From assembly GCA_964605525.1 (NCBI GenBank), contig CAZSCV010000002.1, positions 69,888 to 133,887 of the forward strand: a DNA stretch of 64,000 nt, read 5' to 3'. The DNA comes from an uncultured Bdellovibrionales bacterium. Its GTDB lineage: Bacteria > Patescibacteriota > Minisyncoccia > Moranbacterales > UBA9337. The notes beneath the pieces were generated by a model, which made no database searches, was not told the origin of the DNA, and was given only the letters and a program-made list of their open reading frames with translations. Positions 30,563-55,039 of this stretch are shown piece by piece; position 1 is the first letter of the stretch, and each line of letters starts with the position of its first letter. Both the position numbers and the translations under genes were made by a program.

Positions 30563-30570
30563 ATTAACAT

Positions 30571-37813: not shown

Positions 37814-39721
37814 TTATTCTTTGGCTGGAGTTTCGGCAGGAACAATTCTGATAAAATTATCCGGCCGGTTATCAATATTCAATTCCCATTCCGGGAGGGA
37901 ACTTTCACTGTAATAATAATGCGCCGAGAGAGTATCTTTGTTCTTTTTTTTGTTAGATTCCAGTTTTTCAAAATAACGCATTTTTCCTCTGCGAGTGATG
38001 ACAAAATAATCTATGGAATTTTTTGTAGAATTTACCGAATAGTTGGTAGTGCAAGTGCCTGAAAAAAATTCACATACTCCGTAATAATCCGACCAGACAG
38101 TCAATTCTTTGGCGCCAGGAAGGCTATTGAGGTATTTGGCGGCCTCAAACCCTCCATATCCCCAGGAATCAGCTATAATGTATTTTTTGGGCAGTAGGTT
38201 ATTTGTGTAATTGAGATAGAAGGGCTTGGCAAGAATTATTGGAAGTGCCAAGGAGAAAACAAGAGCAACTGTCAAAATAAGCTTGTTGCCTTTTTTAAGT
38301 ACAAAAGCAGATGAAAGCATGGAATAGAAAGAAATCGCCGCTAGAAAATATGCCGCTGGATACAATATAATATCATAGCGAATTATGGCAAATAAATTTT
38401 TCGAAAGAACAGCTCCAAAAAAAGATAGTATGAAAAAAGAAAGTGAAAATGAAATAAAATGAAATGGATTTTTCTTGAAAAAAATTGACCTGATCCAATG
38501 TGCCAGCATTAAAAAAATAACAACAGGTTGGAGGGAAAAAACAAAAATTTTAAATTCAAGCATGACTTTTTCAAAAAAAGACGTTCCTTCGGGAAAAAAT
38601 TTCACATCAAATGGAATTTCGCTTATTTGGAGAAAATTGCCCCCAATCGACCAATTCAGTAAAACTGCAAGAAAAATAAATGCCAAAACTGAATAAACGA
38701 CTGAAGAAATAACAAATCTGGCTTTGTGCAGAAAATTTGATATTTTCAAAAAGAGGCTTGCTTTTATTTTTACGCACAGAATCAGGATTATTAATAGCGC
38801 AAGTATGCAAATAAGAAATACGGGAATTCCTTCATATAGTAGCGTTCCTTTTAAAAGAATTGAGAAATCTAATAATGAAGCCGGAAGAAATATGGCGAAC
38901 ACAACCACTGAGGTCAAAATTGTCAGCACGTAACCTGTGATAAGTTTTTTTACATCCCTTCCGAGAAGCTCCGCATCAGATGAAGATTTTCTAAAGAAAA
39001 ATATCCAGGCAAGTATGATGGAAAAAAAATAAATGAAAAGAAAGGTGCTGGTATATTTGCAAAGCAAGCTTAATCCCAAAAAAATACCGCTCAAAAAACT
39101 CAAAGGAAATTCTTTCTTGATTATAAAAGCGAGAAATAATAGAACAGAGGCAAAAGTGCAAGACCAAATTAAGGCATCAGGATTTATGACCTGGGAAATT
39201 CCGACAAGAATAGGGGATAGGGACATAATAAAGACAGCCAAAAAAGAAAACGGCTTATTTCCGGTCAATTTGTTGGTAATCCAATAAAAAGATAACAACG
39301 AAAGCGCGGACCAGATCAACAAGGGGATTCGGAAGAAAAAATTTCTTTTTATTGTTGATTTTTCCCTGGCTTCACCGAAAGATTCACTGTCGCCGGAAAC
39401 AGTTGTTTCTCTGGGAAATTGATTGAAGTTTCTGTTTAAAAAATAACCGGCACCGTCTATGAGGGCTAATGTGATTCCGGGCTTGTCATTTATGTAGGTT
39501 TTTTCAAATTCTCCACTGGAAATACCCTTCCAATAATGAGGAATTCTTTCATATTTCCAAAGCTGTTCATCTGGGGATACGAAATTTGTTAAATGAAAAA
39601 AACCGAATGATAAAAATATAAAAGCCGGCAAAACGGCAAAAATCGCGGATTTTTTTTGTAATAATTTCAGAATACGTATGCGCATATTAATATCAAAGCA
39701 AGTAGACAACAAGGATAGCAA
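37814..39721 (-). CDS. GT-C fold membrane glycosyltransferase, ArnT/PMT (GT39/GT83)-like, family A paralog 1
   Basis: First-loop DE motif (SPDEQLWKYERIPHYW), INDKPGITLALIDG, more than 10 TM, C-terminal soluble domain GYGGFEAAKYLNSLPG...VWSD...GVCEFFSGTC shared with the next two genes. Confidence 0.6.
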   Translation of the reverse strand: MLSLLSTCFDINMRIRILKLLQKKSAIFAVLPAFIFLSFGFFHLTNFVSPDEQLWKYERIPHYWKGISSGEFEKTYINDKPGITLALIDGAGYFLNRNFNQFPRETTVSGDSESFGEAREKSTIKRNFFFRIPLLIWSALSLLSFYWITNKLTGNKPFSFLAVFIMSLSPILVGISQVINPDALIWSCTFASVLLFLAFIIKKEFPLSFLSGIFLGLSLLCKYTSTFLFIYFFSIILAWIFFFRKSSSDAELLGRDVKKLITGYVLTILTSVVVFAIFLPASLLDFSILLKGTLLYEGIPVFLICILALLIILILCVKIKASLFLKISNFLHKARFVISSVVYSVLAFIFLAVLLNWSIGGNFLQISEIPFDVKFFPEGTSFFEKVMLEFKIFVFSLQPVVIFLMLAHWIRSIFFKKNPFHFISFSLSFFILSFFGAVLSKNLFAIIRYDIILYPAAYFLAAISFYSMLSSAFVLKKGNKLILTVALVFSLALPIILAKPFYLNYTNNLLPKKYIIADSWGYGGFEAAKYLNSLPGAKELTVWSDYYGVCEFFSGTCTTNYSVNSTKNSIDYFVITRRGKMRYFEKLESNKKKNKDTLSAHYYYSESSLPEWELNIDNRPDNFIRIVPAETPAKE

Positions 39722-39755
39722 ATACCAGAAAGACGGCTGATTATGGAAATTTTTT

Positions 39756-41639
39756 TTATTCCATTATTAATAGCTGTTTGGCGTCAACAACTTTGACAAA
39801 ATTATCCGGCCGACCGGCTATCTCCACCTTAAACGCATAATCCTCCGTGAGGTAGGCTTGCTCGAGGTCGATATAACTTTTGGCTGAGGTTTCAGTTTTG
39901 AAAGTTTTAGACATCCGGCCGGTTGAAATAACGATGTAATCAAAATCTTTTCCCTTGATGTTTTTGGGATCAAGTCCAATTTCACAGCGTCCGGAGAAAA
40001 CCGCGCAAACAGCGCCTTTGTCCGACCAAATGACAAGATTCTGCGGATTGGGAAGAGAATTTAAATAGGCTGCGGCTTCATATGATCCATCCCCCATATC
40101 TTTTAAATTAACAACATATTTTTTGGGAAGAATCTCAGAATTATATGCAAAATAGAAAGGCTTGATTGAAACAAGACTGTAAATCAAGGAAAATGCAAAT
40201 AATATTGAAATTATAATTTGATGTTTCTCGAATCTTTTAATCTGGACAAAATGCGCAAGTGCCATTCCGGCAATAATAAAAAAGAGGGGATAGAGCATTA
40301 CTTGATAACGCACCACCGCAACAGCGCCACTAGCAGTCGAGGCAATGTAATAAATAAAAATAAACAACAAGAAATAAAAAACATTTTTTATTGCGTAAAT
40401 ATCCTTTTCTTTATGCCAAACAATGAGAGCAGTGATGTAAGAAATAACCGAAACAAGTACCAGTGGAGAAACAGCAAAAATAAGGCTGTACACTTCCGCC
40501 AATATTTTCCCGCTAAATACTGCCGGGGAGAACAAGTCGTTCGTTCCCTTTGGAGAAGCGATTATTTGCATAAAGTCGCCAAAGCGCATTCCCGAATAAA
40601 CATTAACAATTACGGCAATCATCAAAAAAAGAAAAAATCCTAAAAATAACAATACCAGAGTTTTTCGATAAGGGGTGATTTTTTCCAAAATTGTTTTAAT
40701 TATCTTTGATTTCAGAAAAAAGAAATCCAATCCGATAAAAAACAATATAGCACAAAATAAAGGCAGGAATGGCACAAAGGTTTTGTTTAAAAACGTTCCC
40801 TCTAGGAGCATTATGGGCTTTACCCAAACGGCAGGGAAAAAAATGAAAAAAGTCGCCAGTGAGGATGCAATCAAAATCAGATAACCAATCATTTTATTCC
40901 TCAAATAAACAAAAAATTCAGTTTGCTTTGCGGCAAAAATAAAATCAATGAATATGAGCAGGAAAAAATAAACATAGAGAACATTGGACACATATTTTGT
41001 AAGCAGAGAAAGACCCAAGAAAATTCCAGCAATAGCGGAAAATTTAAATTTATCTTCTTTTAGGTACGCCAAAAAAGAAAGCAACGCAAGTGGCGCAAAA
41101 ATCCAAATCAACGAATCCGGATTAATAATAAGCGACATCCCCAGAAGAATCGGAGAGAGTCCTATGAATATGGTTGAAAAATTAGCCGTGGATTTTCCGA
41201 ACATTTTTCGGATAAAAAAATAAAACAAAGGAAGAAAGAGTAGTGAAAGAAGATAAATCGGCAGGCGAAAAAAGAAATTTATTGAGTTGATAATTTCCAA
41301 TTGTTCTGAAGTTTTGGGTTTTTGCCTCAGTGTTTTGTAATCCATCGGGTCATATTTTAAAAGACCCAATCCGGAAAATATTGCGACAGTCACTCCCGGC
41401 TTGTCATTAATATTGGTTCGGCTGAATTTCGGTTTGGTTACTCCGCTCCAAAACTTCGAAGTTCTGTCATAAGTCCAATATGGCTCGTCCACCGCGGAAT
41501 ATTTGTCCAAGCGCGGAAGTCCGAAAAAAAGATTAACAGCAATAATCGAACTAAGCAACAAAATCGCCCCTAGTTCTTTTTTGAAAAAAATTTTCATATA
41601 CTTTGCCGCATCATCTGATAATTTTCTTAGTGTTTTCAT
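39756..41639 (-). CDS. GT-C fold membrane glycosyltransferase, ArnT/PMT-like, family A paralog 2
   Basis: SAVDEPYWTYDRTSKFW, NINDKPGVTVAIFSG, C-terminal GDGSYEAAAYLNSLP...IWSDKGAVCAVFSGRC. Confidence 0.6.
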   Translation of the reverse strand: MKTLRKLSDDAAKYMKIFFKKELGAILLLSSIIAVNLFFGLPRLDKYSAVDEPYWTYDRTSKFWSGVTKPKFSRTNINDKPGVTVAIFSGLGLLKYDPMDYKTLRQKPKTSEQLEIINSINFFFRLPIYLLSLLFLPLFYFFIRKMFGKSTANFSTIFIGLSPILLGMSLIINPDSLIWIFAPLALLSFLAYLKEDKFKFSAIAGIFLGLSLLTKYVSNVLYVYFFLLIFIDFIFAAKQTEFFVYLRNKMIGYLILIASSLATFFIFFPAVWVKPIMLLEGTFLNKTFVPFLPLFCAILFFIGLDFFFLKSKIIKTILEKITPYRKTLVLLFLGFFLFLMIAVIVNVYSGMRFGDFMQIIASPKGTNDLFSPAVFSGKILAEVYSLIFAVSPLVLVSVISYITALIVWHKEKDIYAIKNVFYFLLFIFIYYIASTASGAVAVVRYQVMLYPLFFIIAGMALAHFVQIKRFEKHQIIISILFAFSLIYSLVSIKPFYFAYNSEILPKKYVVNLKDMGDGSYEAAAYLNSLPNPQNLVIWSDKGAVCAVFSGRCEIGLDPKNIKGKDFDYIVISTGRMSKTFKTETSAKSYIDLEQAYLTEDYAFKVEIAGRPDNFVKVVDAKQLLIME

Positions 41640-41648
41640 AGATAAGTT

Positions 41649-43877
41649 TTATCTTAATTTTATTATGCGAACATACTGACTTTCACGATTATTTATTTTT
41701 AATTGCCAGAAAATATCATTTCCTTCAAGCTCATAGTATTGCCCGAAGCTCAATGGATCGTTGGGTTTTGACCGACTTCTCTTTTTTGTCCGGCTTTCTC
41801 TTCCTGATGAAATAACTACATATTCAATTTGAATATTCTGAAGTTCCAGCTTGTCATATCCAGTATAGCAAATTCCTGCAAAAAAGTTGCATACTCCGGA
41901 TTTATCCGTCCAAATAACCGTTTCTTCCGCGTCAGGAAGTTGATTAAGAAACTGCGCCGCTTCATATGACCCACTTCCCATATCCTTCAAATTAAGCGAA
42001 TACTCGCGAGGAAGGAAAACGGAAGCGTAGCTTAGATAAAAAGGATGATTCAGCCAGAGGGAGATAATCCCAGCAGAGATTATTAGCAAGATAGGAACGA
42101 TTACTAGAGAAAGAATACCTAGTTTTATACGCTCAAACAATGTTTTTATTCCCAATCCTGCGGCGGTTAAAATTAGCGGGAAAGCCATTATTTGATAGCG
42201 GGTTATCAATGCGACATTGGTCATAATTGATCCGGCATAATAAAGCAGAGTAAAAAATATGAGAAAAATAAAATAGCGTTTTTGGGCGGAATATTTCTTG
42301 GAAAAAGCAAAAAATAATCCGCTTGCAATTCCCAATATTGCAATGGGATGGATGGCAAAAATTAAAGCATAAAAATCAGCAAAAAAAGTATTCAGGGAGC
42401 CGATTTTTTTGATTGATTTTGGGGATTGGAGAATTTCTTCAAAATTCCAAAAATGCATTCCGAGATAAACATTGAAAAGTACGATTAATATTGAAAGAGT
42501 AAAAATTGATCCAATAAAAATAAAAATGAACCTTCTTTTTTTTGCAAAAAAACTCAAAATTGAAGAAAACAAGATATTTTTAAATAAAAAAGTGTCGAAT
42601 ACTAATAACGCAAAAAAAGACAACAGATATGCGGAAGTTGATTGAAATGCCTGGCTGTGGATGGTTGCTTTTAGGATTATTTCCGGGTTAACCCAAGATG
42701 CCGGACAGAAAAGATAAAAAACGGCTAGAGAAATAAAAATTATAGAAAGATAGTTATAAACCGATTCTCTTAAATATATTTTTAAAGAAGGGTATTTTTT
42801 TACGTTTAAAATATATTCAAGAAAAATAAGAAAAAAGAAAAAAATGAAAAGAATATTAGCGACATACTTTGTTAGAAGTGCCAATCCTAAAAATATTCCG
42901 GACCATAAAATAAAAATTTTTGATTTTCTTTTTAAATAAGAAAAATAAGAAAAAATCGACGCGGAAGTAAAAATCCAGAGTAAGGAGTCTGGATTGATTA
43001 TGCGGACCATCCCGATCAATATCGGAGAGAGTCCGATAAATGCGATTGAATACAGCGCTGATTTTTTTCCGGAAAAACGTTCAATGAAAAAATAAAGAAT
43101 TGGAATAAAAAATGCAGCGAAAACAAGGATGGGGAAGCGAAGCGCAAGATTCATTTCTTCAAAATTTTTCGTTGAAGCAAAAATTCTACTACTCCATTTA
43201 ATTGGAGCGTAATTTTCGGGCGTTATCCAATTCAATCCGATCCCTGAAATAATTGAAACTGTGATCCCGGGCTTATCACTGACAAAGGTTCTTTCCCATT
43301 CATGTTTTTCAAGTGCCAGCCAATATTTCTCAATTCGGCCGAAAGTCCAAAGAGCTTCATCCACGGCTGCAAATTTTTGCACATTAAAGCTTGAAAATCC
43401 AAAGAAAGCAAAGGCAATCAAAAAAACGGATGCCAGTGTTAATACTCCTTGTTCCTGCAACCAATTTCCAATTGATACCGCAGTGGAAAATTTTTCCGGC
43501 TGATGTTTTTTAAGCAAATACTTCCAAGATAAAAAAATAACCGCCACCGCTAAAAAGATATTCGCAAAAGCAAAGACCGCTAGGTGGAACTGGAAACCAT
43601 TAACTGCGACAAAAATTTGAGCAGGAAGAAGAACGAAAACGGTTTTTTTGAAAAAAATTTCAAATGCAAACTTTTCTTCAAAATAAGCAATCAAACCTAA
43701 TGATACTATTAAAACTGTTAAGTAAAGGAAATATAGGATGTCACCTGGAATTAAAACAGGAAAATAGGGGTTTTTCTCCATTTTTATCAAAAAAATAAAA
43801 AAAAGCATTAAAATTGAAAAAAATGCCAGAAGTTTGGGATAATAGTTGGAAAATATTTCATTCAAAAGCTTGTTCAT
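41649..43877 (-). CDS. GT-C fold membrane glycosyltransferase, ArnT/PMT-like, family A paralog 3 (extended N-terminus)
   Basis: AAVDEALWTFGRIEKYW, FVSDKPGITVSIISG, C-terminal GSGSYEAAQFLNQLP...IWTDKSGVCNFFAGIC. Confidence 0.6.
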   Translation of the reverse strand: MNKLLNEIFSNYYPKLLAFFSILMLFFIFLIKMEKNPYFPVLIPGDILYFLYLTVLIVSLGLIAYFEEKFAFEIFFKKTVFVLLPAQIFVAVNGFQFHLAVFAFANIFLAVAVIFLSWKYLLKKHQPEKFSTAVSIGNWLQEQGVLTLASVFLIAFAFFGFSSFNVQKFAAVDEALWTFGRIEKYWLALEKHEWERTFVSDKPGITVSIISGIGLNWITPENYAPIKWSSRIFASTKNFEEMNLALRFPILVFAAFFIPILYFFIERFSGKKSALYSIAFIGLSPILIGMVRIINPDSLLWIFTSASIFSYFSYLKRKSKIFILWSGIFLGLALLTKYVANILFIFFFFLIFLEYILNVKKYPSLKIYLRESVYNYLSIIFISLAVFYLFCPASWVNPEIILKATIHSQAFQSTSAYLLSFFALLVFDTFLFKNILFSSILSFFAKKRRFIFIFIGSIFTLSILIVLFNVYLGMHFWNFEEILQSPKSIKKIGSLNTFFADFYALIFAIHPIAILGIASGLFFAFSKKYSAQKRYFIFLIFFTLLYYAGSIMTNVALITRYQIMAFPLILTAAGLGIKTLFERIKLGILSLVIVPILLIISAGIISLWLNHPFYLSYASVFLPREYSLNLKDMGSGSYEAAQFLNQLPDAEETVIWTDKSGVCNFFAGICYTGYDKLELQNIQIEYVVISSGRESRTKKRSRSKPNDPLSFGQYYELEGNDIFWQLKINNRESQYVRIIKLR

Positions 43878-43962
43878 GTCTATTAATATCGCTTTTTTAA
43901 TAAAAATATGTTAAAATAAGTAGGAATTAAAAAACCTTATTTTCCATTATATCGCATTTACA

Positions 43963-47305: not shown

Positions 47306-47318
47306 ATAAAAAAATAAT

Positions 47319-48146
47319 ATGCATAAATTGCAAAAAAACCTCGGGGAATACTGGAATAAATTCAAATCGTTGATAGCGAAAAATAAAAAAGTTGTGGTTA
47401 TTGGTGTTGCATTGGCGGTGCTTTTACTTTCCGGTTTTTGGGTTTGGAGGGAATGTGAAGTTAATCGTCCCTTAAAAATTGGGATTATGTCTGACATTCA
47501 CGCCGCTAACGACAAAGTGCGAATGGCTGACAATGAACCGGCGGGCTATCCGAGAAAATATAAGGAATATTTTGCATCCGCTTTGGATAAAATGAAAGAA
47601 GAGAAGGTCGATGTGGTATTGGCACTAGGGGATAACACTAATGTGGGCAATCCAAAATATGCAAAAAGTCTAATGGAAATTATGGCAGAAAAAAAAGCGA
47701 GTGTTATGTGGGTAAAAGGAAATCATGACCGGACAAAAACCAAAGTAATGACCTATTTCGGAATCGACAAGACATACTATTTCCAAGATGTTAAAAATTG
47801 GCGTATAATTGTGCTGGATTCTTCATTTACCGGAAAAGATTATACTGGCGAAATAGACGCGGAGCAGATGAAATGGCTCAAGGAAGCGCTCAAAACCGAC
47901 AGACGCGTGATTATTGCAATGCATCATCCAATATTTAACAAGGAAAATTTGGAAAATATTTATCCGATTTACAAAGATTTTGTGGAAACTATTTCAAATA
48001 GTCACAATGTTAAGGATGTGTTTTTTGGACATTTTCACAAATATGATATGGTTAAGGAAATAAACGGAGTAAAATATCATCTCGTCCCATCATTGACCGG
48101 AAATGAAAACGAACCGATTTTTAAGATCATAGAATTTGAAGAATGA
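47319..48146 (+). CDS. calcineurin-like metallophosphoesterase, paralog 1
   Basis: IGIMSDIHA, LGDNTNVGN, GNHD, GHFH motifs; N-terminal TM. Confidence 0.75.
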   Translation: MHKLQKNLGEYWNKFKSLIAKNKKVVVIGVALAVLLLSGFWVWRECEVNRPLKIGIMSDIHAANDKVRMADNEPAGYPRKYKEYFASALDKMKEEKVDVVLALGDNTNVGNPKYAKSLMEIMAEKKASVMWVKGNHDRTKTKVMTYFGIDKTYYFQDVKNWRIIVLDSSFTGKDYTGEIDAEQMKWLKEALKTDRRVIIAMHHPIFNKENLENIYPIYKDFVETISNSHNVKDVFFGHFHKYDMVKEINGVKYHLVPSLTGNENEPIFKIIEFEE

Positions 48147-48988
48147 AATTATTTATAAAGCAAAAAAATAAAATATTCATTACCTCGGTACTTTTTATTT
48201 TTGTGATCATTTTATTTGCAGGAGCATTGAAGATTGTGTTTTTTTGTGCAAGCAAAAAACATACGCCTGTCAAAATCGGGTGGGTAACAGATATTCATGC
48301 CGGGGGGCAAAGAGAGCGGAAACAAACAGAAAAGAATATTACATTTCCGCGGGAATATTCCAAATATCTGGATGCTGTTTTTAAAAAAATGAAGGCTGAG
48401 GGTATAAATTTTGTAATCACTTCCGGGGATAATACTGATAAAGGAGAAAATAAGTATGCGGAAAAGCTTGTCGCTATTGCCAGGGAAAATGAGATGAATG
48501 TTCTCTGGACAAAAGGCAACCACGATAGGGAAAAAAATGGCATAATGAAGCAACTGGGATTGGAAAAAAACTATTACACCTTTGATATCGGCAATGACGT
48601 AAGAATAATTATTTTAAATAATGCAAAAATCGACACTTATCCGAATGGTGAAATCGACGCGGAACAATTTGAGTGGTTCAAAGATGTTTTGAAAAATACT
48701 CGCAGAGGTAAAAAAATAATCATATCAATGCATGTTCCAATAATAGAACCGACTAAAAATTTTGTAATCACCCCTCAATATAAAGAATTTGAAAAACTGC
48801 TGAGAAAGAATAATAACATTATTTTTGTCCTATTTGGTCATCGGCATATGGAATTTAATGCGAAAATCAACGGGGTGCATTATTGGGCGGGAAATCCATT
48901 GACACTCAAAGATCACTTGGGAAGTTATTATATATTGGATATTGATAATGAAATTGTAATCTCTGCTGATTTAGCAGGTTTGGAATAA
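48143..48988 (+). CDS. calcineurin-like metallophosphoesterase, paralog 2
   Basis: IGWVTDIHAG, SGDNTDKGE, GNHD, GHRH motifs; ATGA overlap with the upstream gene. Confidence 0.75.
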   Translation: MKLFIKQKNKIFITSVLFIFVIILFAGALKIVFFCASKKHTPVKIGWVTDIHAGGQRERKQTEKNITFPREYSKYLDAVFKKMKAEGINFVITSGDNTDKGENKYAEKLVAIARENEMNVLWTKGNHDREKNGIMKQLGLEKNYYTFDIGNDVRIIILNNAKIDTYPNGEIDAEQFEWFKDVLKNTRRGKKIIISMHVPIIEPTKNFVITPQYKEFEKLLRKNNNIIFVLFGHRHMEFNAKINGVHYWAGNPLTLKDHLGSYYILDIDNEIVISADLAGLE

Positions 48989-48997
48989 AAAAAAATT

Positions 48998-50767
48998 ATG
49001 AAAAAAAACAAAGCAACTATCTTAACTCTCGCGTTAATTTTATTTGTAGCAATATTTTTGCGGACATATCATTTCCATGATTGGCTTTACTTTAAAATGG
49101 ATCAAGCGCGTGATTCTCTGCTCATCAGCCAGGCTATTACTGAAGGAGCGGGAAGTCTTCCTCTTTTGGGACCACGCGCCGGGGCGACGGATGTAGGTGA
49201 GGGTTTTTTGCGCCTGGGACCAGCTTATTACTATTTTCAATATCTTTCCGGAAAAATCTTCCATTCCACAGATCCTGAAATTTTTGCCTATCCGGATTTA
49301 TTTTTTTCTATTGCGGCAATACTACTTATTTTTTTCTTTCTCCGTTTGTACTTTAATAATTTTATCTCTCTTTTGCTTGTCGCCTTGTATTCATTTTCTT
49401 TTATCATAATCCAATATTCGCGCTTTGCTTGGAATCCAAACTCTTTGCAATTTTTTGCTATTTTGACTTTTTTCGGACTTTTGAAATTTTTTCGCGAAAA
49501 AGATAAAAAAAGAAAGAAATGGTGGCTGGCACTTTGGGCAATCGGACTTTTTATCGGCTCCCAATTGCATTTTTTCGGCTTCTTTATGCTTCTTGGCGCA
49601 TCTGGATTATTTATATTATTCAAATTCCAGCCTTGGAAAAAAGAAAGTTTCGCGCAACTCGGAAAAAAAGAATTTATCCAAAAAATTTCTACTTATACTT
49701 TGATAATTTTGGCAGTATTTGCCGTTACATATTCCCCCGTGATTATCAGTGATATTAAAAGGGGAGGGGAAAATACTAGAAATTTTGTTTTGGCACTTTC
49801 TTCAAAACCGGCAAACAAGAAAAAAACTTTCGATGAAAAACTGCAGCGCGGATTTGATGAAAATATGAAAAATTATTGCTTAATTATAACCGCCGATTGT
49901 TATAACGGGAAATACAAGGATTGGGGAATGTCCATTAAGTTTACGATTTTTTTAATCGCATTTGGAATAGTTTTGACCATCTGGAGGATAGCAAAAACGT
50001 CAAATCAAGACCAAAAAGACTTTCTTATGCTTGTCCTGATCTGGCTGGGCGTGTTCTTTGTTTTGACTGTTCCGGTTTCATATCAAATCCGTCCCAGATT
50101 TTTCATACCCGTTTTCTTGATTCCGTATATCTTAATTGGGATATTTTTTCAACTGTTGCAAGAAAAGGCAAAAAAGGGCGGGATCTTGATTATCATCGGT
50201 GCTACGATCCTCCTTTTGAATGTGAATGCCGAGGGGACTCGCGCTTGGTTTGGCGAACAGTCAAAAGCGCAAAATAAAAATATATCGCCCGCAAGAACGC
50301 TTATTTTAAAAACAAAAGATGGAGTGACTCTTGGGCAATTGGAGCGCGCGGCGGATTATATTTATGAAAACAAGAAAAAAGGAGCAAATATTTATTATTA
50401 CATAAAACCGGAGCACATCGCCCCCTTTAAGTATCTTTTCCGCCAAAAAAACGATCCATCCTTTGTTTTTTTACCTTTAAAAATAAACACTGATCCAAAC
50501 GCCCAATATTTTGCCATCATCCCTTCAGATGCAGAAAGCCAGAGCTATATTGAAGGTAAATTCAATAGTGAAATAAAAATATTTTCAGAGAAGCAATTTG
50601 GTCAGTTGAAGGTTATTGAAATTGATGTTCTTAATCGATCAATCTCTCAAGATTTCAGGTTTAATCAGGAAAGCGGATTATCGGACAGAATTTTTTGGTC
50701 GGATATTTTTGGCAAGAAAATAAATCGGGATATATTGCAAGAAGAGGGGATTAATTCAATCGAATAG
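48998..50767 (+). CDS. polytopic membrane protein, family B paralog 2
   Basis: YHFHDWLYFKMDQARDSLLISQAITEG...LPLLGPRAGATDVGEGFLRLGPAYYY. Confidence 0.5.
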   Translation: MKKNKATILTLALILFVAIFLRTYHFHDWLYFKMDQARDSLLISQAITEGAGSLPLLGPRAGATDVGEGFLRLGPAYYYFQYLSGKIFHSTDPEIFAYPDLFFSIAAILLIFFFLRLYFNNFISLLLVALYSFSFIIIQYSRFAWNPNSLQFFAILTFFGLLKFFREKDKKRKKWWLALWAIGLFIGSQLHFFGFFMLLGASGLFILFKFQPWKKESFAQLGKKEFIQKISTYTLIILAVFAVTYSPVIISDIKRGGENTRNFVLALSSKPANKKKTFDEKLQRGFDENMKNYCLIITADCYNGKYKDWGMSIKFTIFLIAFGIVLTIWRIAKTSNQDQKDFLMLVLIWLGVFFVLTVPVSYQIRPRFFIPVFLIPYILIGIFFQLLQEKAKKGGILIIIGATILLLNVNAEGTRAWFGEQSKAQNKNISPARTLILKTKDGVTLGQLERAADYIYENKKKGANIYYYIKPEHIAPFKYLFRQKNDPSFVFLPLKINTDPNAQYFAIIPSDAESQSYIEGKFNSEIKIFSEKQFGQLKVIEIDVLNRSISQDFRFNQESGLSDRIFWSDIFGKKINRDILQEEGINSIE

Positions 50768-50772
50768 AAAAT

Positions 50773-52479
50773 ATGCTTAATTTAAAAAACGGAATAAATT
50801 GGAAGATTGCGTTGTTCTGGGCGGTAATATTACTGGCGATTTTTTTGCGCGTTTACAATTTTAACGATTGGCTTTTGGCAAAAGGCGACCAAGTGCGCGA
50901 CGGGATAAAAATTTCACGGGCTTTTGAGGGAGGTGTGGGAGATTTGCCACTTTTGGGACCGCGCGCCGGAGGAACAAAACTGCATCTGGGACCGGCTTAT
51001 TACTATCTTCTTTATGGCTCTAGTATTATTTCCGGTAATGTTTCATTGCCGACTACGGCATATCCGAATTTAATTTTCTCGCTCCTTTCAATTTGGATTT
51101 TTTATTTTTTCTCCAAAGAATATTTCAATAAAGACCAGGCGATGGTTTTAACAGGAATATTCTCCCTTTCATATCTTGCCATTGAACATGCCAGATTTCC
51201 CTGGAATCCGAATTCAACAATCTTTTTTTCACTGCTTTTTGCTTTTGCTCTGCTGAAAGTATTCAAATCCGGAAAAGAAAAAAATATTTGGTGGGCGGCG
51301 CTGGCCGGTTTTGCTTATGCTATTGGATCACAGTTGCATTTCACTTTTTTTGTGGCTTTTCCGATAATCACCGTCATCTTTCTGACCTTTAACTACAAAA
51401 GAATTTCTCGTTCCATATCCTGGAAACAAGCCGGATTGTTTTTTTTGGTTATAATATTTTTTTATATCCCGGTAATCGTGAGTGATGTTTTAAATAATGG
51501 AGAAAATCTTCGATTGTTTTTTTCTTCAATCAGTTCGAAGTCATCAGATCATTCATTTTTCAAGAATTTGCAAAAAGATTTTTATTATTTCGGGAAATAT
51601 ATCTTCAGAATAATAACCGGATATTTCGGGCCAAATAAAGTGCTTCATTATGCGGGAAGTTTTCTGGCAGTATTGGGATTGGGAGTCTTGGTCGCATTGC
51701 TAAAAAAAGAATCGGATGAAAATAAAATGAGCTTTCTTCTGCTTAACTTGATCTTATTTTTCACTTTTTTCCTTGTGTATATTCCGCTGGCATATTCAAT
51801 CGACAAACCTCGCTTTTATCTGCCAATTTTCTTTGTTCCTATTGTTTTTCTGGGCTTGATTGCCGGAATAATTGTTAAAAAAACACGAGGCAATATTATT
51901 GCAAAAATCTCTCTTTTACTTTTGGCAGTTGCCCTTATTTCCAGTAATATTTTTTTTGTGTCCGCTTGGTTTAGCGAGCTTGGAAAATCAACGCGCAAAA
52001 GCGTTAATCCGAAAGATACCCTCATCCTGAAAACAAAAAAAGACAGCGCTTGGATACTCTGGGAGCAACTTACGTCTTCTGCGAATAAAATAAAAAGAGA
52101 TTGCCCGCAAAAAAATATCTATCTCTCTTTTTCCAAAAAAGTTGCCGAATTTGAAGATACTCTTGATTATGCGCTTACTTATAATGATAAGAATTTGAAA
52201 TTACACTTATTTAAGCTTGGTAGCAACGCTCCTTTTGATTCCAGTGCTTGTTATTATTATATTTTTCGAAACGGGGATGAGGCACCGAAAGATTTGAATG
52301 CGTATTTTAATCAAAAAGAAGACTTTTCTATGGGAAGTTTGGGGATATTAAAAATTGAAATAAAAAATACAACCGTTAAAGATGACTTGTCGGAGAAATC
52401 AGGAAGCACTGCGGCATCTGAAATAGAAGATATTGCCGGTCAAAATGAATATTGGAAAGATGTTTTCCGTAAAAAGTAA
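50773..52479 (+). CDS. polytopic membrane protein, family B paralog 3
   Basis: YNFNDWLLAKGDQVRDGIKISRAFEGG...LPLLGPRAGGTKLHLGPAYYY. Confidence 0.5.
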   Translation: MLNLKNGINWKIALFWAVILLAIFLRVYNFNDWLLAKGDQVRDGIKISRAFEGGVGDLPLLGPRAGGTKLHLGPAYYYLLYGSSIISGNVSLPTTAYPNLIFSLLSIWIFYFFSKEYFNKDQAMVLTGIFSLSYLAIEHARFPWNPNSTIFFSLLFAFALLKVFKSGKEKNIWWAALAGFAYAIGSQLHFTFFVAFPIITVIFLTFNYKRISRSISWKQAGLFFLVIIFFYIPVIVSDVLNNGENLRLFFSSISSKSSDHSFFKNLQKDFYYFGKYIFRIITGYFGPNKVLHYAGSFLAVLGLGVLVALLKKESDENKMSFLLLNLILFFTFFLVYIPLAYSIDKPRFYLPIFFVPIVFLGLIAGIIVKKTRGNIIAKISLLLLAVALISSNIFFVSAWFSELGKSTRKSVNPKDTLILKTKKDSAWILWEQLTSSANKIKRDCPQKNIYLSFSKKVAEFEDTLDYALTYNDKNLKLHLFKLGSNAPFDSSACYYYIFRNGDEAPKDLNAYFNQKEDFSMGSLGILKIEIKNTTVKDDLSEKSGSTAASEIEDIAGQNEYWKDVFRKK

Positions 52480-52484
52480 TCCGT

Positions 52485-53966
52485 TTATTTTTTTCCAGCA
52501 AGCATTTTTCCAAAGAAGACAAGGTCTTCTTTTTTTATTTCCCCAATAAAATATAAAATTCCGGCGTAAATAGCAAATAAAATCACCGACCACACAATAA
52601 AAATATATTGCCCTTGGGAGAAAAATCCGGCAATAAAATACATAATGATTCCTGCTGAAATTATTTTTAAGTAATTCTTCATTTTCAAAGTAATCCCGAA
52701 ATCGCGATGAATAAAGTAGAGCGCGATTAGCATGACAATAAATGAACTGACGGATGTCGCAATCGCACTTCCAATCAGAGCATATTTTTTTATGAGAATA
52801 TAATTAAGAATGGTGTTGACAATCAATCCAAAAATGGAAATAAACATTGGTTGCTTTGTTTTCCCGGCTCCATTACTCACAAAACTCATCACATAAAATA
52901 TCGTCAGAAATCCCACTCCGACAGCAAGAATTGCCATTGGGACGCTAGCCTCGATATATTGCGAACTGTAAAATATCTTGATTATCGGGCGGGCAAAAAC
53001 TGACATCAAAACCACGCTTGGAACTAAAAGTATTGTCATAATTCGGAGTGATTGGCTGATTATTTTATTGGTTTCACTGTGATTATTTTGCGCGGTGGAA
53101 TTGGAAATTTTCGGAAGGAGGATTATTGTAAGAGCGTAAAAAATATAGTAGGGGATACGTCCAACCGTAAGGGCGGCATTATATATTCCAGTTTGGTAGT
53201 CGCTATGTAAAATTCCTTTAACAAGATAGAGATCGATACTGATAAGAAGCTCGTATGCCAGAAAAAATAGGATTATTTGCCAAGCGTAATTTGTGAGTTT
53301 TTGCCATGGAAATGAAGCGGTTTCAAGTTTTTGAGCGGTAATTTGAGCGCGAATTTTTTTTGTAACGCTGAATTTGTCGATCAGCCACGCAATCAAGAAA
53401 ACTGATGCCGGAGCAACAATATATCCAATAATTGATCCTTTGAGATGGAAAAAATATGCCAGCGAAACGATAGCGATAACTTTTACTGCAGAACGGGAAA
53501 CTTTGAGAATCGACTGTAAATTGAAAAGATGCAGTCCTGTGTAATATGAAAAATAAAAAGAAGCCGCCGCAAATGCCGGAATAATCAAGGTTGAGATGCG
53601 GAAGAGGTGAGTAAGCGTTGGATCACCCAATATTCTCGCAATTAATGGCGAAAGGAGGTAAAACAGCAAGGTTATGCTTCCAATGACAATGCTTTGCAAA
53701 AAAATTGCCCGCCGTTTGATTGCCAAAACCATTGCCGGATTGGAGTCAAAGATTTCGCTGATATATTTTGCCATCGCGGTAGGAATTCCGTTTCCAATCA
53801 AGATAATTACCATTGTGGTAAGCGTAATGACCAATCCGTAGCGTCCGTAATCCGCCGGACCCAATATCCTCCCGACAACACTATGGATAATATAGCCGGA
53901 TAGATTGAAAATGATTTCTGAAATTACAACCCAAAGTGCTGATTTTGCAATATGTTGTTTTGACAT
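52485..53966 (-). CDS. Wzx-like oligosaccharide flippase (polysaccharide biosynthesis protein, MOP superfamily)
   Basis: 14-TM architecture with N-terminal ALWVVISEIIFNLSGYIIHSVVGRILGPADYGRYGLVITL typical of Wzx/PST proteins. Confidence 0.65.
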   Translation of the reverse strand: MSKQHIAKSALWVVISEIIFNLSGYIIHSVVGRILGPADYGRYGLVITLTTMVIILIGNGIPTAMAKYISEIFDSNPAMVLAIKRRAIFLQSIVIGSITLLFYLLSPLIARILGDPTLTHLFRISTLIIPAFAAASFYFSYYTGLHLFNLQSILKVSRSAVKVIAIVSLAYFFHLKGSIIGYIVAPASVFLIAWLIDKFSVTKKIRAQITAQKLETASFPWQKLTNYAWQIILFFLAYELLISIDLYLVKGILHSDYQTGIYNAALTVGRIPYYIFYALTIILLPKISNSTAQNNHSETNKIISQSLRIMTILLVPSVVLMSVFARPIIKIFYSSQYIEASVPMAILAVGVGFLTIFYVMSFVSNGAGKTKQPMFISIFGLIVNTILNYILIKKYALIGSAIATSVSSFIVMLIALYFIHRDFGITLKMKNYLKIISAGIIMYFIAGFFSQGQYIFIVWSVILFAIYAGILYFIGEIKKEDLVFFGKMLAGKK

Positions 53967-54367: not shown

Positions 54368-54408
54368 CAGACCGTTTCCTTGTAATTCAGGGAACGGTCT
54401 GTTTTTTT
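54368..54408. terminator. bidirectional rho-independent terminator (CAGACCGTT...AACGGTCTG + T7)
   Basis: 9-bp stem with A/T runs on both sides, between convergent genes. Confidence 0.7.
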
Positions 54409-55039
54409 ATTTCTCCATTTTTATTATATCTTTAATTTCTTCAAAAATCACATTCTGATCCCTGTTTCCGTCAATTGTTTTTAGATCCCAAATTTTTACC
54501 GCCGCGTCATACAAAGATCTTTTTTCTTTGAGATATTCCACTCCTTGGTCAGGCTTGCGCTGGCGATTCATGATAATCTTTGGATCAACTGCAAGATAAA
54601 TCCCAAGAAATGGCTGCTCGATTTTATAATTTTTCAAATTTTCTGCATCGAAATTTTTCAAAAGATATTGGATGTTAATCGCACTATCATAAAAAAACCG
54701 GTCGCTGAGAATATAATTAAAATCTCGGCTTTCCAATTCGCGCTTTAATTTTTCAAATCTTAATTGATCGATTTTTAGCGCCAACTTGCGAAGCTGGATT
54801 TGTATTAGATTGGCTTTCGTGACACTTTTTTTCATATTCGGTTGAATTTGGCACAAGCCTTTGATTTTGCAAATCAAGCAATATTTTTTCTTTAATTCCG
54901 CCAATTTGGTGGCGATGCCGAATTCGATGGCATGGAAATAAAAAACCCGCTTGCCTTGCGACTGGAGATAAGTTTTGAGCATTTGGATCTGGGTGGATTT
55001 GCCCGACCCGTCCAACCCAGAAATGGTGATTATTTTCAT
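54407..55039 (-). CDS. thymidylate kinase-like P-loop nucleotide kinase
   Basis: ISGLDGSGKSTQ P-loop, DRFFYDS (DRY-like) and YLAVDPKIIMNRQ lid-like motif; unusual insertion in the middle. Confidence 0.45.
   Translation of the reverse strand: MKIITISGLDGSGKSTQIQMLKTYLQSQGKRVFYFHAIEFGIATKLAELKKKYCLICKIKGLCQIQPNMKKSVTKANLIQIQLRKLALKIDQLRFEKLKRELESRDFNYILSDRFFYDSAINIQYLLKNFDAENLKNYKIEQPFLGIYLAVDPKIIMNRQRKPDQGVEYLKEKRSLYDAAVKIWDLKTIDGNRDQNVIFEEIKDIIKMEK

What the first reader, a model, noticed from the sequence alone, without database searches (positions are those of the whole stretch)
37814..53966. A 16-kb envelope glycosylation locus with two separately triplicated families of GT-C-like polytopic proteins
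Three tandem minus-strand paralogs (family A) have an ArnT/PMT-type DE motif, an (I/V)xDKPG(I/V)T motif, and a shared C-terminal soluble domain (GSYEAAxYLNxLP...W(S/T)D...GVC.(F/V)F(S/A)G.C). They face three plus-strand paralogs of a second family (family B, DQxRD...LPLLGPRA...LRLGPxxYY). Interleaved are a secreted GH28 hydrolase and two metallophosphoesterases, and the locus is closed by a Wzx flippase. Such expansions suggest a lipid-linked glycan assembled on the outer face, or a protein O-glycosylation system with several acceptor or linkage specificities. The conserved Cys-containing C-terminal domain of family A is not a standard ArnT feature.
Basis: partly seen in the sequence, partly recalled or inferred. 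Interest (0 to 1): 0.6.

Follow-up and report, generated by a model that had tools for sequence, protein, structure and literature searches.

The report
Moranbacteria multi-GT-C envelope glycosylation locus
This stretch of an uncultured ultra-small (Moranbacteria) bacterium encodes six membrane sugar-transferases of two old families, a galacturonic-acid-cleaving enzyme, two phosphodiesterases and a flippase, which together most likely build and trim a surface sugar polymer outside the cell; the kind of system is known, but this layout and its enzyme fusions have not been described.

Summary
Window 37814-53966 carries three tandem family-A and three family-B polytopic proteins, a GH28, two metallophosphoesterases and a MOP flippase, and every quoted motif is present. 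All six membrane proteins pass Pfam PMT_2. AlphaFold models (pLDDT about 90) match GT-C enzymes only: ArnT best for B, STT3/AglB/ArnT for A. Family B is therefore not a transporter.

The copies are not recent triplications. A1, A2, A3, B1, B2 and B3 are separate orthogroups, 46-68% identical to orthologs against 29-37% between paralogs. The window (Parcubacteria bacterium Athens0714_25) holds the GT-C-rich half of a locus conserved across Moraniibacteriota: Tmk, MOP flippase, a divergent B|A pair, 1-8 GT-Cs, then PF03706 flippase-like, GT4, UDP-glucose dehydrogenase and an ArnC-type GT2. This window lacks that last block.

In other genomes family A is fused to GH28 (at least 7 proteins), to a metallophosphoesterase (2) and to a C39-like peptidase (1). 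Its Cys-pair C-terminal domain has no Pfam model and occurs only in this family (302 representatives among 1.84 billion).

[quoted passage not shown] The substrate is unproven. I rate it a new variant of a known kind, of moderate interest.

The parts
37814..39721 (-). A1: family-A GT-C glycosyltransferase, 635 aa from a TTG start (an ATG 12 codons downstream is an alternative start)
   Evidence: Pfam PMT_2 3e-8 and PMT 2e-5. It is 31-32% identical to A2 and A3. It forms its own orthogroup with L004 6249-8078 (39%) and L008 8059-9981 (35%).
39756..41639 (-). A2: family-A GT-C glycosyltransferase, 627 aa; the core family-A member found in every related locus
   Evidence: Pfam PMT_2 1.4e-11. It is 100% identical to P0001 from Parcubacteria bacterium Athens0714_25, with orthologs at about 50% in Moranbacteria. 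AF2 model: pLDDT 89.9, pTM 0.92. Foldseek matches STT3/AglB at 7e-7, ArnT at 2e-4 and Pmt4 at 3e-3.
39756..40154 (-). C-terminal extracytoplasmic domain of A2 (residues 496-627), with invariant L504 P505 G516 G518 N527 W538 D540 C545 G550 C552 Y568 Y596
   Evidence: No Pfam family. An exhaustive search found 302 representatives in 1.84e9 proteins, always in family-A GT-Cs. Conservation was measured over 138 diverse copies.
41649..43877 (-). A3: family-A GT-C glycosyltransferase, 742 aa, with about 4 extra N-terminal membrane helices
   Evidence: Pfam PMT_2 7.6e-11. Hydropathy shows the extra helices. Orthologs: L007 5882-8176 (60%) and L006 8171-10426 (40%).
43878..43962 (.). 85-bp divergent intergenic spacer between the A operon and the B operon
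   Evidence: Gene coordinates. The promoter scan for the region is at chance level, so no promoter is assigned.
43963..45726 (+). B1: family-B GT-C glycosyltransferase, 587 aa
   Evidence: Pfam PMT_2 6.5e-8. Orthologs: L007 (62%) and L006 (48%).
45704..47305 (+). GH28 exo-alpha-galacturonosidase-like hydrolase, 533 aa, with one N-terminal membrane helix
   Evidence: Pfam Glyco_hydro_28 2e-38. NCBIfam alpha-D-galacturonidase BT4155 1e-110, below its cut-off. PDB 3JUR exo-poly-alpha-D-galacturonosidase 2e-92. NTD, GDD, GHG and RIK motifs are present. Fused to family A in P0077, P0080, P0366, P0422, P0432, P0457 and P0483.
47319..48146 (+). MPE1: membrane-anchored metallophosphoesterase, 275 aa
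   Evidence: Pfam Metallophos 2.7e-18. DxH, GDxx, GNHD and GHxH motifs plus an N-terminal helix. PDB Rv0805 4e-8. A Metallophos domain is fused to family A in P0377 and P0454.
48143..48988 (+). MPE2: membrane-anchored metallophosphoesterase, 281 aa, paralog of MPE1
   Evidence: Pfam Metallophos 6e-17. 41% identical to MPE1. Motifs and N-terminal helix present.
48998..50767 (+). B2: family-B GT-C glycosyltransferase, 589 aa; a core family-B member present in most related loci, though more distant ones carry only a B1-like copy
   Evidence: Pfam PMT 1e-9. Orthologs at about 50% in Moranbacteria. AF2 model: pLDDT 89.2, pTM 0.89. Foldseek best match is ArnT at 8e-8, TM 0.51-0.55.
50773..52479 (+). 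B3: family-B GT-C glycosyltransferase, 568 aa
   Evidence: Pfam PMT_2 9e-8. Orthologs: L007 (67%), L006 (46%) and L005 (41%).
52485..53966 (-). MOP-superfamily flippase (Wzx/MurJ/SpoVB-like), 493 aa, a separate convergent transcription unit
   Evidence: Pfam Polysacc_synt 2e-20, MurJ 2e-16 and MatE. NCBIfam SpoVB 94 bits and MurJ 63 bits, both far below cut-off. 66-69% identical orthologs sit next to Tmk at the same edge of the locus in relatives.
54407..55039 (-). Thymidylate-kinase-like gene: the conserved syntenic border of the locus, not thought to be part of the function
   Evidence: Pfam Thymidylate_kin. Tmk followed by the flippase is found in 21 of 38 full-flank loci.

Best explanation

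Proposed steps:
1. Inferred. A sugar is loaded onto polyprenyl phosphate at the cytoplasmic face. The enzymes are encoded outside this window but adjacent in most relatives: an ArnC/GtrB-type GT2, supplied in part by UDP-glucose 6-dehydrogenase. A GT4 probably makes the lipid-linked or glycolipid primer.
2. Inferred. Donor and/or primer are flipped by the MOP flippase at 52485-53966. In relatives a PF03706 flippase-like protein, and in at least one relative (L004) a GtrA-type protein, could also do this.
3. The fold is shown; the chemistry is inferred. On the outer face, the six GT-C enzymes each add a sugar in a different linkage or to a different acceptor position of a surface glycoconjugate. 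They belong to two unrelated-looking GT-C_A families, A1-A3 and B1-B3, and all retain the acidic EL1 motif and the basic and Arg/Tyr residues typical of polyprenyl-phosphate-sugar users.
4. The coupling is shown by gene fusion and adjacency; the substrate is inferred. The membrane-anchored GH28 exo-alpha-galacturonosidase-like enzyme and the two Rv0805/CpdA-type phosphodiesterases work beside family A to trim or process the same polymer. This is analogous to the cognate hydrolases found in exopolysaccharide operons.

The UDP-glucose dehydrogenase link and the GH28 link both point to a uronic-acid-containing polymer, possibly with phosphodiester bonds, resembling a lipoglycan or a teichuronic/teichoic acid. 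The variable number of GT-C paralogs per genome (1-8) would give species-specific surface structures.
For: - GT-C identity: Pfam PMT_2/PMT hits above cut-off for all six. High-confidence AF2 models match only GT-C enzymes.
- Catalytic-type residues are invariant in all paralogs and in 50-52 homologs. They lie where the GT-C/PMT clan has its acidic EL1 pair, its EL1 lysine and its late-loop Arg/Tyr (PMC7801869).
- Conserved locus: in 38 genomes with full flanks, family A occurs in 38, family B in 37, PF03706 in 36, GT4 in 36, UGDH in 29, ArnC-like GT2 in 29, MOP flippase in 25, and a divergent A|B pair in 31.
- The GT2s align end to end with ArnC and PgfS, and the UGDH scores 568 bits against TuaD.
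- Fusions of family A with GH28, Metallophos and Peptidase_C39_2.
- 23 of 24 GH28 genes in the related loci lie within 600 bp of a GT-C gene, 17 of them next to a family-A gene.
- GH28 and the MPEs have intact active-site motifs and N-terminal membrane helices.
- Operon-like packing.
- The system type is defined in PMC8035078, including the use of Wzx-type flippases.
Against: - No acceptor, donor sugar or product is known, and nothing was tested biochemically.
- The donor-synthesis genes (GT2, UGDH, GT4, PF03706, GtrA) are absent from this 64-kb window. I could not check the rest of the genome.
- No UDP-glucuronate 4-epimerase was seen in the loci examined, although GH28 enzymes act on galacturonic rather than glucuronic acid.
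- GH28 and MPE occur in only 11 of 38 full-flank loci each, so they are accessory.
- The GH28 is about as similar to planctomycete and myxobacterial GH28s (42-45%) as to other Moranbacteria ones, which would also fit a scavenging enzyme acquired horizontally.
- The flippase could simply be the cell's lipid II flippase.
Confidence: 0.6

Rival explanations
1. Protein O-glycosylation system. The family-A and/or family-B enzymes act like bacterial PMT (GT39) or the pilin glycosyltransferase TfpW. They transfer sugars from polyprenyl-phosphate carriers to Ser/Thr of S-layer proteins, type IV pilins or lipoproteins, and the paralogs recognise different protein acceptors.
For: Family A has the PMT-type invariant Asp-Glu pair in loop 1. 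42 of 52 family-A members also hit Pfam PMT, and NCBI names them 'glycosyltransferase family 39'. One family-A protein is fused to a C39-like peptidase domain, which suggests a peptide-containing acceptor. TfpW shows that a GT-C enzyme can glycosylate pilins (bioRxiv 10.1101/2020.04.19.049825).
Against: No MIR or PMT_4TMC domains are detected. The conserved neighbours (GT4, UGDH, PF03706, MOP flippase) and the fusions to a glycoside hydrolase and a phosphodiesterase fit polymer or lipoglycan chemistry better than single-sugar protein modification. Up to eight GT-Cs per locus resembles the mycobacterial lipoglycan and arabinogalactan machinery.
Confidence: 0.2
2. The GH28 and the metallophosphoesterases are nutrient-scavenging ecto-enzymes (pectin or uronate and organophosphate harvesting) that merely sit among envelope genes. 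Only the GT-Cs and the flippase form a functional unit.
For: Patescibacteria GH28 genes are usually read as polysaccharide-degradation genes (PMC9868632). The closest characterised homologs are pectin-degrading exo-galacturonosidases (3JUR and BT4155-like). GH28 and MPE are missing from about 70% of related loci.
Against: Independent in-frame fusions join GH28 (at least 7 proteins, on both A2-type and A3-type backbones) and Metallophos (2 proteins) to the C-terminus of family-A GT-Cs. 23 of 24 GH28 genes lie within 600 bp of a GT-C gene, even where only a single GT-C is present (L008). They also sit inside the B operon with 13-bp and 9-bp gaps.
Confidence: 0.1
3. Family A is oligosaccharyltransferase-like. 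It transfers a pre-assembled glycan en bloc from a polyprenyl-diphosphate carrier flipped by the Wzx-like MOP flippase. The coupled metallophosphoesterases recycle the released polyprenyl diphosphate, and GH28 trims the transferred glycan.
For: The best Foldseek matches of the A2 model are STT3 and AglB (7e-7 to 4e-6), ahead of ArnT. The invariant W538-x-D540-x-G542 at a strand-to-helix junction of the C-terminal domain resembles the OST WWDYG motif; this comparison is from memory and was not tested. A MOP flippase is always present. Calcineurin-type phosphoesterases such as LpxH cleave lipid pyrophosphates (own knowledge).
Against: No STT3-family Pfam hit appears in any of 52 members, even at E<=10. 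The family profile finds no OST in the PDB sequence set. TM-scores are only about 0.45, and family B matches OSTs equally well. No initiating phosphoglycosyltransferase was seen in the loci. The ArnC-type GT2 in relatives implies monophosphate-linked single-sugar donors.
Confidence: 0.05
4. An ArnT-like lipid or charge modification system. The GT-Cs decorate membrane lipids or a lipid-anchored molecule to change surface charge and resist cationic antimicrobials, rather than building a polymer.
For: Family B is structurally closest to ArnT. The UGDH plus ArnC-like GT2 plus GT-C combination in relatives mirrors part of the Arn pathway. A PF03706 (MprF-type flippase-like) protein lies next to the locus in 36 of 38 relatives.
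Against: No ArnA, ArnB or ArnD equivalents were seen. Patescibacteria lack lipid A (own knowledge). Six to eight different GT-Cs, plus a glycosidase and phosphodiesterases, are far more than a single lipid decoration needs.
Confidence: 0.05

Closest known systems
Multi-component (three-component) transmembrane glycosylation systems: GtrA/GtrB/GtrC, CsbB-GtcA-YfhO, GacI/J-GacK-GacL, ArnC-ArnEF-ArnT (PMC8035078, PMC11127046)
   Same: The logic matches: polytopic GT-C transferases with an acidic motif in the first outer loop, a flippase (here MOP/Wzx-type, as with GacK), and, in relatives, an ArnC/GtrB-type GT2 that would make the polyprenyl-phosphate sugar.
   Different: Known systems have one GT-C per module and add a single side-chain sugar. 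Here 2-8 GT-Cs of two families sit in one locus. They are coupled, and sometimes fused, to a GH28 and to metallophosphoesterases. In this genome the GT2 is not in the locus.
Mycobacterial and corynebacterial lipomannan/lipoarabinomannan and arabinogalactan assembly (GT4 PimA/PimB, GT2 Ppm1, GT-C PimE, MptA-C, EmbA-C, AftA-D); own knowledge plus PDB hits AftA, EmbA/B and PimE
   Same: Many different GT-C enzymes act in series outside the membrane on a lipid-anchored glycan. Cytoplasmic GT4 enzymes make the primer and a GT2 makes the polyprenyl-phosphate sugar. Corynebacteria also use a glucuronic-acid glycolipid anchor, which parallels the UGDH plus GT4 pair seen here.
   Different: There is no sequence-level relationship beyond the GT-C fold. 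The phylum is different (Patescibacteria), there is no arabinose pathway, and the Moranbacteria genes form one compact locus with a glycosidase and phosphodiesterases.
Rhizobium RgtA-D / RgtE galacturonosyl transfer from dodecaprenyl-phosphate-GalA to LPS (own knowledge, not tested here)
   Same: ArnT-like GT-C enzymes that use a polyprenyl-phosphate uronic acid donor made by a GT2. Several paralogs have different acceptor positions.
   Different: The acceptor there is LPS core and lipid A, which Patescibacteria lack. No GH28 or phosphodiesterase partners are involved. The uronic-acid donor is only inferred here, from the UGDH and GH28 linkage.
Bacterial protein O-mannosyltransferases (GT39; M. 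tuberculosis Rv1002c, PMC12331936) and eukaryotic Pmt1/2/4
   Same: The Pfam PMT/PMT_2 core and the invariant Asp-Glu pair in loop 1 of family A.
   Different: No MIR domain. The C-terminal domain is different and family-specific. The structural matches are weak (Pmt4 E 3e-3 for A). The locus content points to polymer chemistry.
Exopolysaccharide operons that encode a hydrolase or lyase for their own product (BcsZ, PslG, PelA, AlgL; own knowledge)
   Same: The principle that a synthase locus carries an enzyme cleaving the polymer it makes, acting outside the cytoplasmic membrane.
   Different: Those synthases are GT-A/GT-2 or Wzy-dependent systems. I found no description of a GH28 attached to, or fused with, a GT-C transferase.

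Membership tests
GT-C fold glycosyltransferase superfamily (GT-C_A class: ArnT, PMT, STT3/PglB/AglB) | Polytopic membrane protein whose core matches PMT/PMT_2-type profiles | tested here: met
   All six proteins hit PF13231 above the gathering score, and four also hit PF02366. Hydropathy gives 8-16 predicted helices.
GT-C fold glycosyltransferase superfamily (GT-C_A class: ArnT, PMT, STT3/PglB/AglB) | Three-dimensional similarity to solved GT-C enzymes | tested here: met
   The A2 model matches STT3/AglB at 7e-7 and ArnT at 2e-4. The B2 model matches ArnT at 8e-8 with TM 0.51-0.55, then AglB, PglB, ALG9/12, AftA, Pmt and Emb. Non-GT-C hits have probability below 0.2.
GT-C fold glycosyltransferase superfamily (GT-C_A class: ArnT, PMT, STT3/PglB/AglB) | Conserved acidic residue(s) in the first extracytoplasmic loop, plus basic residues for the lipid phosphate (PMC7801869) | tested here: met
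   Family A: D51-E52, D79-K80 and R444-Y445 are invariant in 52 sequences. Family B: D35, Q36, R38, D39, R60 and R367 are invariant in 50 sequences. Equivalence to ArnT D55/E56, K85 and the late-loop Arg/Tyr is inferred from position, not from a structural alignment.
CAZy GT39 (protein O-mannosyltransferase, PMT) | Asp-Glu motif in loop 1, a MIR domain in loop 5 (in eukaryotic PMTs) and the C-terminal PMT_4TMC module | tested here: not met
   The DE motif is present in family A only. No MIR or PMT_4TMC hit appears in any protein, nor in 52 family-A members at E<=10. CAZy/dbCAN classification was not available.
CAZy GT83 (ArnT) | Membership by sequence model, with Ara4N transfer to lipid A | tested here: inconclusive
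   No NCBIfam ArnT model is hit. Family B is structurally closest to ArnT. The acceptor lipid A is not expected in this phylum. dbCAN was not run.
Oligosaccharyltransferase (GT66, STT3/PglB/AglB) | STT3 profile match and a WWDYG motif in the C-terminal domain | tested here: not met
   No STT3-family Pfam hit at E<=10 in 52 members. The family profile finds no OST in the PDB sequence set. Only a W-x-D-x-G resemblance exists (W538, D540, G542).
Multi-component transmembrane glycosylation system (PMC8035078) | GT-C transferase acting on the outer face | tested here: met
   There are six GT-Cs. The extracytoplasmic position of the C-terminal domain is inferred from direct fusion, without an intervening membrane helix, to GH28 and Metallophos domains, which carry signal anchors when free-standing.
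Multi-component transmembrane glycosylation system (PMC8035078) | Flippase (GtrA-type or Wzx-type) | tested here: met
   A MOP-superfamily flippase lies at 52485-53966 and is conserved at the locus edge in relatives. Its substrate is unknown.
Multi-component transmembrane glycosylation system (PMC8035078) | GT-A/GT2 enzyme making the polyprenyl-phosphate sugar | tested here: inconclusive
   None is present in the 64-kb window (tblastn). An ArnC/PgfS-type GT2 is adjacent in 29 of 38 related genomes at 69-73% identity. The rest of this genome could not be searched.
Glycoside hydrolase family 28 | Beta-helix fold with the NTD, G/QDD, G/SHG and RIK catalytic motifs | tested here: met
   Pfam 2e-38. 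The motifs are at residues 267, 289-291, 323-325 and 355-357. 3JUR scores 2e-92.
Calcineurin-like metallophosphoesterase (class III phosphodiesterase, CpdA/Rv0805 type) | DxH, GDxx, GNH(D/E), H and GHxH metal-binding motifs | tested here: met
   All are present in MPE1 and MPE2. Pfam Metallophos 3e-18 and 6e-17. Rv0805 scores 4e-8. Scores against the CpdA model are far below its cut-off, so the substrate is open.
Wzx O-unit flippase | Membership in a Wzx-specific model rather than MurJ or SpoVB | tested here: inconclusive
   Polysacc_synt 74 bits, SpoVB 94 bits (cut-off 372), MurJ 63 bits (cut-off 236), WzxE 16 bits. MOP superfamily only.

The most novel reading that the evidence does not exclude
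Moranbacteria make a previously unknown uronic-acid-containing lipoglycan or wall polymer. It would be assembled outside the membrane by arrays of two CPR-specific GT-C families. The family-A enzymes would work as physically coupled synthesis-and-trimming machines, joined or fused to an exo-galacturonosidase and a phosphodiesterase through a family-specific disulfide-bonded C-terminal domain. The changing paralog set (1-8 per genome) would diversify the cell surface that these episymbiont-like cells present to hosts and phages.
Probability: 0.25. Interest if true: 0.7.

Novelty: new variant of a known kind. Interest (0 to 1): 0.5.

Why it matters
Almost nothing is known about the envelope chemistry of Candidate Phyla Radiation bacteria, although their surface is what attaches these tiny cells to hosts. 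This locus is present in essentially every Moranbacteria genome sampled here, which makes it a concrete and testable candidate for their main surface-glycan pathway.

The fusions of a GT-C transferase with a GH28 hydrolase or a metallophosphoesterase are a new architecture for GT-C enzymes. They predict a direct hand-over between synthesis and trimming. They also give two soluble, easily expressed ectodomains whose substrate specificity would reveal the composition of the polymer.

The family-A C-terminal domain is an undescribed domain with conserved Cys, Trp, Asp and Tyr residues. It is likely to be the acceptor-binding module.

Tried and rejected
- Sequence searches of A2, B2 and the family-A profile against PDB chains gave nothing meaningful. 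Only fold comparison linked them to solved GT-Cs.
- Pfam at E<=10 over 52 family-A members found no STT3/OST families, so the OST-like reading stays a low-probability lead.
- Promoter and terminator consensus scans were at chance level (59 versus 59.8 and 15 versus 16.8 expected). The operon structure therefore rests on gene spacing alone.
- tblastn with the relatives' GT2, UGDH, GT4, PF03706 and GtrA proteins found nothing in the window.
- Two attempts to extend beyond the window ends by exact-protein look-up failed.
- The profile-profile comparison of A against B aligned only the N-terminal 228 columns (probability 88%). I therefore rejected the idea that B is a diverged copy of A.
- I also rejected recent local triplication, because orthologs are closer than paralogs.
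- Literature searches for Moranbacteria or CPR GT-C arrays and for the source MAG found nothing relevant.

Full report
**Observation.** Three tandem minus-strand genes are A1 37814-39721, A2 39756-41639 and A3 41649-43877. They face a plus-strand run of B1 43963-45726, GH28 45704-47305, MPE1 47319-48146, MPE2 48143-48988, B2 48998-50767 and B3 50773-52479. A convergent minus-strand flippase gene closes the block at 52485-53966. Gaps inside each run are -4 to 34 bp, and the two runs are separated by an 85-bp divergent spacer, so they look like two divergent operons plus a separate flippase unit. Consensus promoter and terminator scans were at chance level and add nothing.

Blastp confirms two families. 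A1/A2/A3 are 31-37% identical over their full length, and B1/B2/B3 are 29-33% identical. There is no significant A-versus-B match, and MPE1 and MPE2 are 41% identical.

**What the proteins are.** All six membrane proteins hit Pfam PMT_2 above the gathering score, and four also hit PMT. AlphaFold2 models built with 50-52 homologs are confident: A2 has pLDDT 89.9 and pTM 0.92, and B2 has pLDDT 89.2 and pTM 0.89. Foldseek against the PDB returns only GT-C enzymes with probability 1.0. For B2 the best match is ArnT (8e-8, TM 0.51-0.55), followed by AglB, PglB, STT3, ALG9/12, AftA, Pmt and Emb. For A2 the order is STT3/AglB (7e-7), ArnT (2e-4), ALG9/12 and Pmt4.

A profile-profile comparison of the two families aligns only the N-terminal GT-C core (228 columns, probability 88%). 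They are therefore two distinct GT-C_A families, not diverged copies of one another.

The invariant residues are D51-E52, D79-K80 and R444-Y445 in family A, and D35/Q36/R38/D39, R60 and R367 in family B. They lie where the GT-C/PMT clan carries its acidic first-loop pair, the lysine that contacts the lipid phosphate, and the late-loop Arg/Tyr (PMC7801869). This mapping is positional inference. All six window paralogs keep these residues, so none looks like a dead enzyme.

The GH28 has all four catalytic motifs and a single N-terminal membrane helix. It is closest to exo-acting alpha-galacturonosidases: 3JUR at 2e-92 and the BT4155-type model at 1e-110, the latter below its cut-off. Both phosphoesterases have the complete metallophosphoesterase motif set and an N-terminal helix, and their nearest solved relative is Rv0805. 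The flippase belongs to the MOP superfamily. It scores best against SpoVB and MurJ models but far below their cut-offs, so 'Wzx' is too specific a name.

**Source and relatives.** A2, B2 and GH28 are 100% identical to proteins of Parcubacteria group bacterium Athens0714_25. Homologs at about 50% identity come almost entirely from Candidatus Moranbacteria/Moraniibacteriota.

The six genes are separate orthogroups. A 168-kb JGI contig (L007) has the same order as the window: A2 (68%), A3 (60%), then B1 (62%), GH28 (57%), MPE1 (56%), B2 (63%) and B3 (67%). L006 has the same genes rearranged. Neighbour-joining trees group each window paralog with orthologs from other genomes. They also reveal a fourth B clade that is expanded elsewhere (up to five copies in one locus, L001) but absent from the window. 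Orthologs (46-68%) are closer than paralogs (29-37%), so the duplications predate the Moranbacteria radiation. They are not local triplications.

**The larger locus.** A scan of GTDB species genomes with the family-A profile returned 76 loci, nearly all Moraniibacteriota. I classified their genes by tblastn. Among the 38 loci with full 10-kb flanks:

| Gene class | Loci (of 38) |
|---|---|
| Family A | 38 |
| Family B | 37 |
| Adjacent divergent A\|B pair | 31 |
| PF03706 flippase-like protein | 36 |
| GT4 | 36 |
| UDP-glucose 6-dehydrogenase | 29 |
| ArnC-type GT2 | 29 |
| MOP flippase | 25 |
| Tmk | 21 |
| GH28 | 11 |
| Metallophosphoesterase | 11 |

The number of GT-C genes per locus ranges from 1 to 8 across the 76 loci (1 to 7 among the 38 in the table). 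The canonical order is RtcB … Tmk, flippase, B(-)|A(+), further GT-Cs, PF03706, GT4, UGDH, GT2.

The GT2 is the most conserved gene (69-73% identity) and aligns end to end with ArnC and PgfS models. The dehydrogenase scores 568 bits against TuaD. In at least one relative (L004) a GtrA-type protein is also present.

The window and its 88% relative L009 keep the RtcB-Tmk-flippase border but lack the PF03706-GT4-UGDH-GT2 block. In its place they carry an M50 peptidase, a trans-polyprenyl synthetase, a P-type ATPase and an Lnb_N protein. Whether the donor genes are elsewhere in this genome could not be checked.

**Gene fusions.** In the A2 search, two 1060-aa proteins (P0077, P0080) are A2 orthologs fused at the C-terminus to a GH28 domain. 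P0080 is a single verified ORF in a contig with at least nine GT-C genes.

An exhaustive HMMER search of 1.84 billion representatives with the A2 C-terminal domain found only 302 proteins. The domain is always at the C-terminus of a family-A GT-C or internal to a longer fusion. Pfam on the long hits showed family A + GH28 (five more proteins, on both A2-type and A3-type backbones), family A + Metallophos (two), and family A + Peptidase_C39_2 (one).

Free-standing GH28 genes are almost always next to a GT-C gene. Of 24 GH28 genes in the related loci, 23 lie within 600 bp of one, and 17 of those are next to a family-A gene. This holds even in L008, where only one GT-C is present.

Because free GH28 and MPE proteins carry signal anchors and the fusions have no intervening membrane helix, the family-A C-terminal domain must be extracytoplasmic. 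The three activities must act in the same compartment, very probably on the same substrate.

**The C-terminal domain.** It has no Pfam family. Across 138 diverse copies, L504, P505, G516, G518, N527, W538, D540, C545, G550, C552, Y568 and Y596 are 95-100% conserved, and both cysteines are conserved at 100%. The model shows a small alpha/beta domain. A Cys-x6-Cys disulfide and an aromatic/acidic sugar-binding surface are plausible but untested.

The W-x-D-x-G string recalls the WWDYG motif of oligosaccharyltransferases. However, no STT3-type profile hit exists in 52 members even at E<=10, and the family profile finds no OST in the PDB sequence set. I keep this only as a low-probability lead.

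[quoted passage not shown] A GT2 loads a sugar on polyprenyl phosphate, a flippase moves it outward, and GT-C enzymes transfer it outside the membrane.

The unusual features here are:
- The number and diversity of GT-Cs, which most resembles mycobacterial lipomannan, lipoarabinomannan and arabinogalactan assembly (own knowledge).
- The conserved GT4 + UGDH + PF03706 trio, which would fit synthesis and flipping of a glucuronic-acid-containing lipid primer.
- The coupling to an exo-galacturonosidase-like GH28 and to phosphodiesterases.

Together these point to a uronic-acid-containing surface glycoconjugate, possibly with phosphodiester bonds, that is built and trimmed on the outer face. Each GT-C orthogroup would provide one linkage. 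The fold, the motifs, the synteny and the fusions are shown. The donor, the acceptor and the product are inferred.

Rivals are protein O-glycosylation, unrelated scavenging roles for GH28 and MPE, OST-like en-bloc transfer with pyrophosphate recycling, and ArnT-like lipid modification. They are listed with their evidence in the Rival explanations section.

**Novelty.** The individual genes are already annotated generically ('glycosyltransferase family 39', 'phospholipid carrier-dependent glycosyltransferase', 'glycoside hydrolase family 28'), and the system type is known. I found no literature on the phylum-wide multi-GT-C locus, the two CPR-specific GT-C families, the family-A C-terminal domain, or the GT-C fusions with GH28, metallophosphoesterase and C39-like peptidase. 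I rate it a new variant of a known kind, with interest 0.5.

Noticed in passing
window 55149-55357, 56516-56724, 57405-57613: A 209-nt GC-rich element occurs in three copies (99% and 86% identical to the first), each with a roughly 61-nt self-complementary core. It folds very stably (minus strand -113.7 kcal/mol, z = -10.6; plus strand z = -6.6) and matches no Rfam family. The spurious ORFs beginning MSQSKAAGLRAASENEA... read through it. The NCBI assembly of the same organism (L085) is about 1.6 kb shorter in this interval, which suggests repeat collapse. It could be a structured ncRNA or a palindromic mobile repeat.
   Followed up: partly
window 55653-55734, 56392-56527, 58048-58183, 59687-59759: AT-rich 80-136-nt direct repeats, with a 31-nt core ACTTCAGATA..ACGTT in five copies, precede small ORFs in the 55-60 kb stretch, which otherwise has no long genes.
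   Followed up: no
window 35483-36646 and 4546-5607: A trans-polyprenyl synthetase lies directly upstream of the locus, in the position where relatives have the GT2/UGDH block. An IspG (GcpE) gene lies further upstream. Both are isoprenoid-carrier supply genes, so the link to the lipid carrier may be coincidental or functional.
   Followed up: partly
window 24477-31458: A cluster of defence- or mobile-looking genes: a Schlafen/AlbA_2 + HATPase_c_4 protein, an SDH-type ClpP-like protease, an HNH_2 endonuclease and a Fic protein. A Fic gene also flanks the locus in L009 and L063.
   Followed up: no
window 60166-61230 (+), with antisense ORF 60163-61140 (-): A PHB-depolymerase-like esterase gene sits in a segment whose GC content jumps to 0.47, against about 0.36 elsewhere. 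A 325-aa antisense ORF overlaps it and is probably spurious.
   Followed up: no
window 54366-54403: A strong 15-bp-stem hairpin followed by a T-run lies just past the Tmk stop codon, in the approximately 440-bp spacer (53967-54406) that precedes the flippase start. It is likely a terminator that isolates the flippase unit.
   Followed up: no
L001 14962-15684; L063 18501-20819; L005 3121-5304; L063 6159-7685: Related loci carry further accessory genes: a YdjC-type sugar deacetylase, an extra GT2 with a small 460-aa third type of PMT_2 GT-C, and large proteins (727 and 508 aa) without any Pfam family between the flippase and the GT-Cs.
   Followed up: partly
L013, L020, L022, L027 and about 15 other loci; also L057: Many public MAG records that carry this Moranbacteria-type locus are titled 'uncultured Bdellovibrionales bacterium', and one is titled 'Clostridiales bacterium GWE2_32_10'. 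These are probably mislabelled or mis-binned Patescibacteria contigs.
   Followed up: no
window 6133-7527 and 13453-14190: DUF4012 and DUF5656 proteins are present in the same window, among housekeeping genes (ClpB, HtrA-like proteases, S2, EF-Ts).
   Followed up: no
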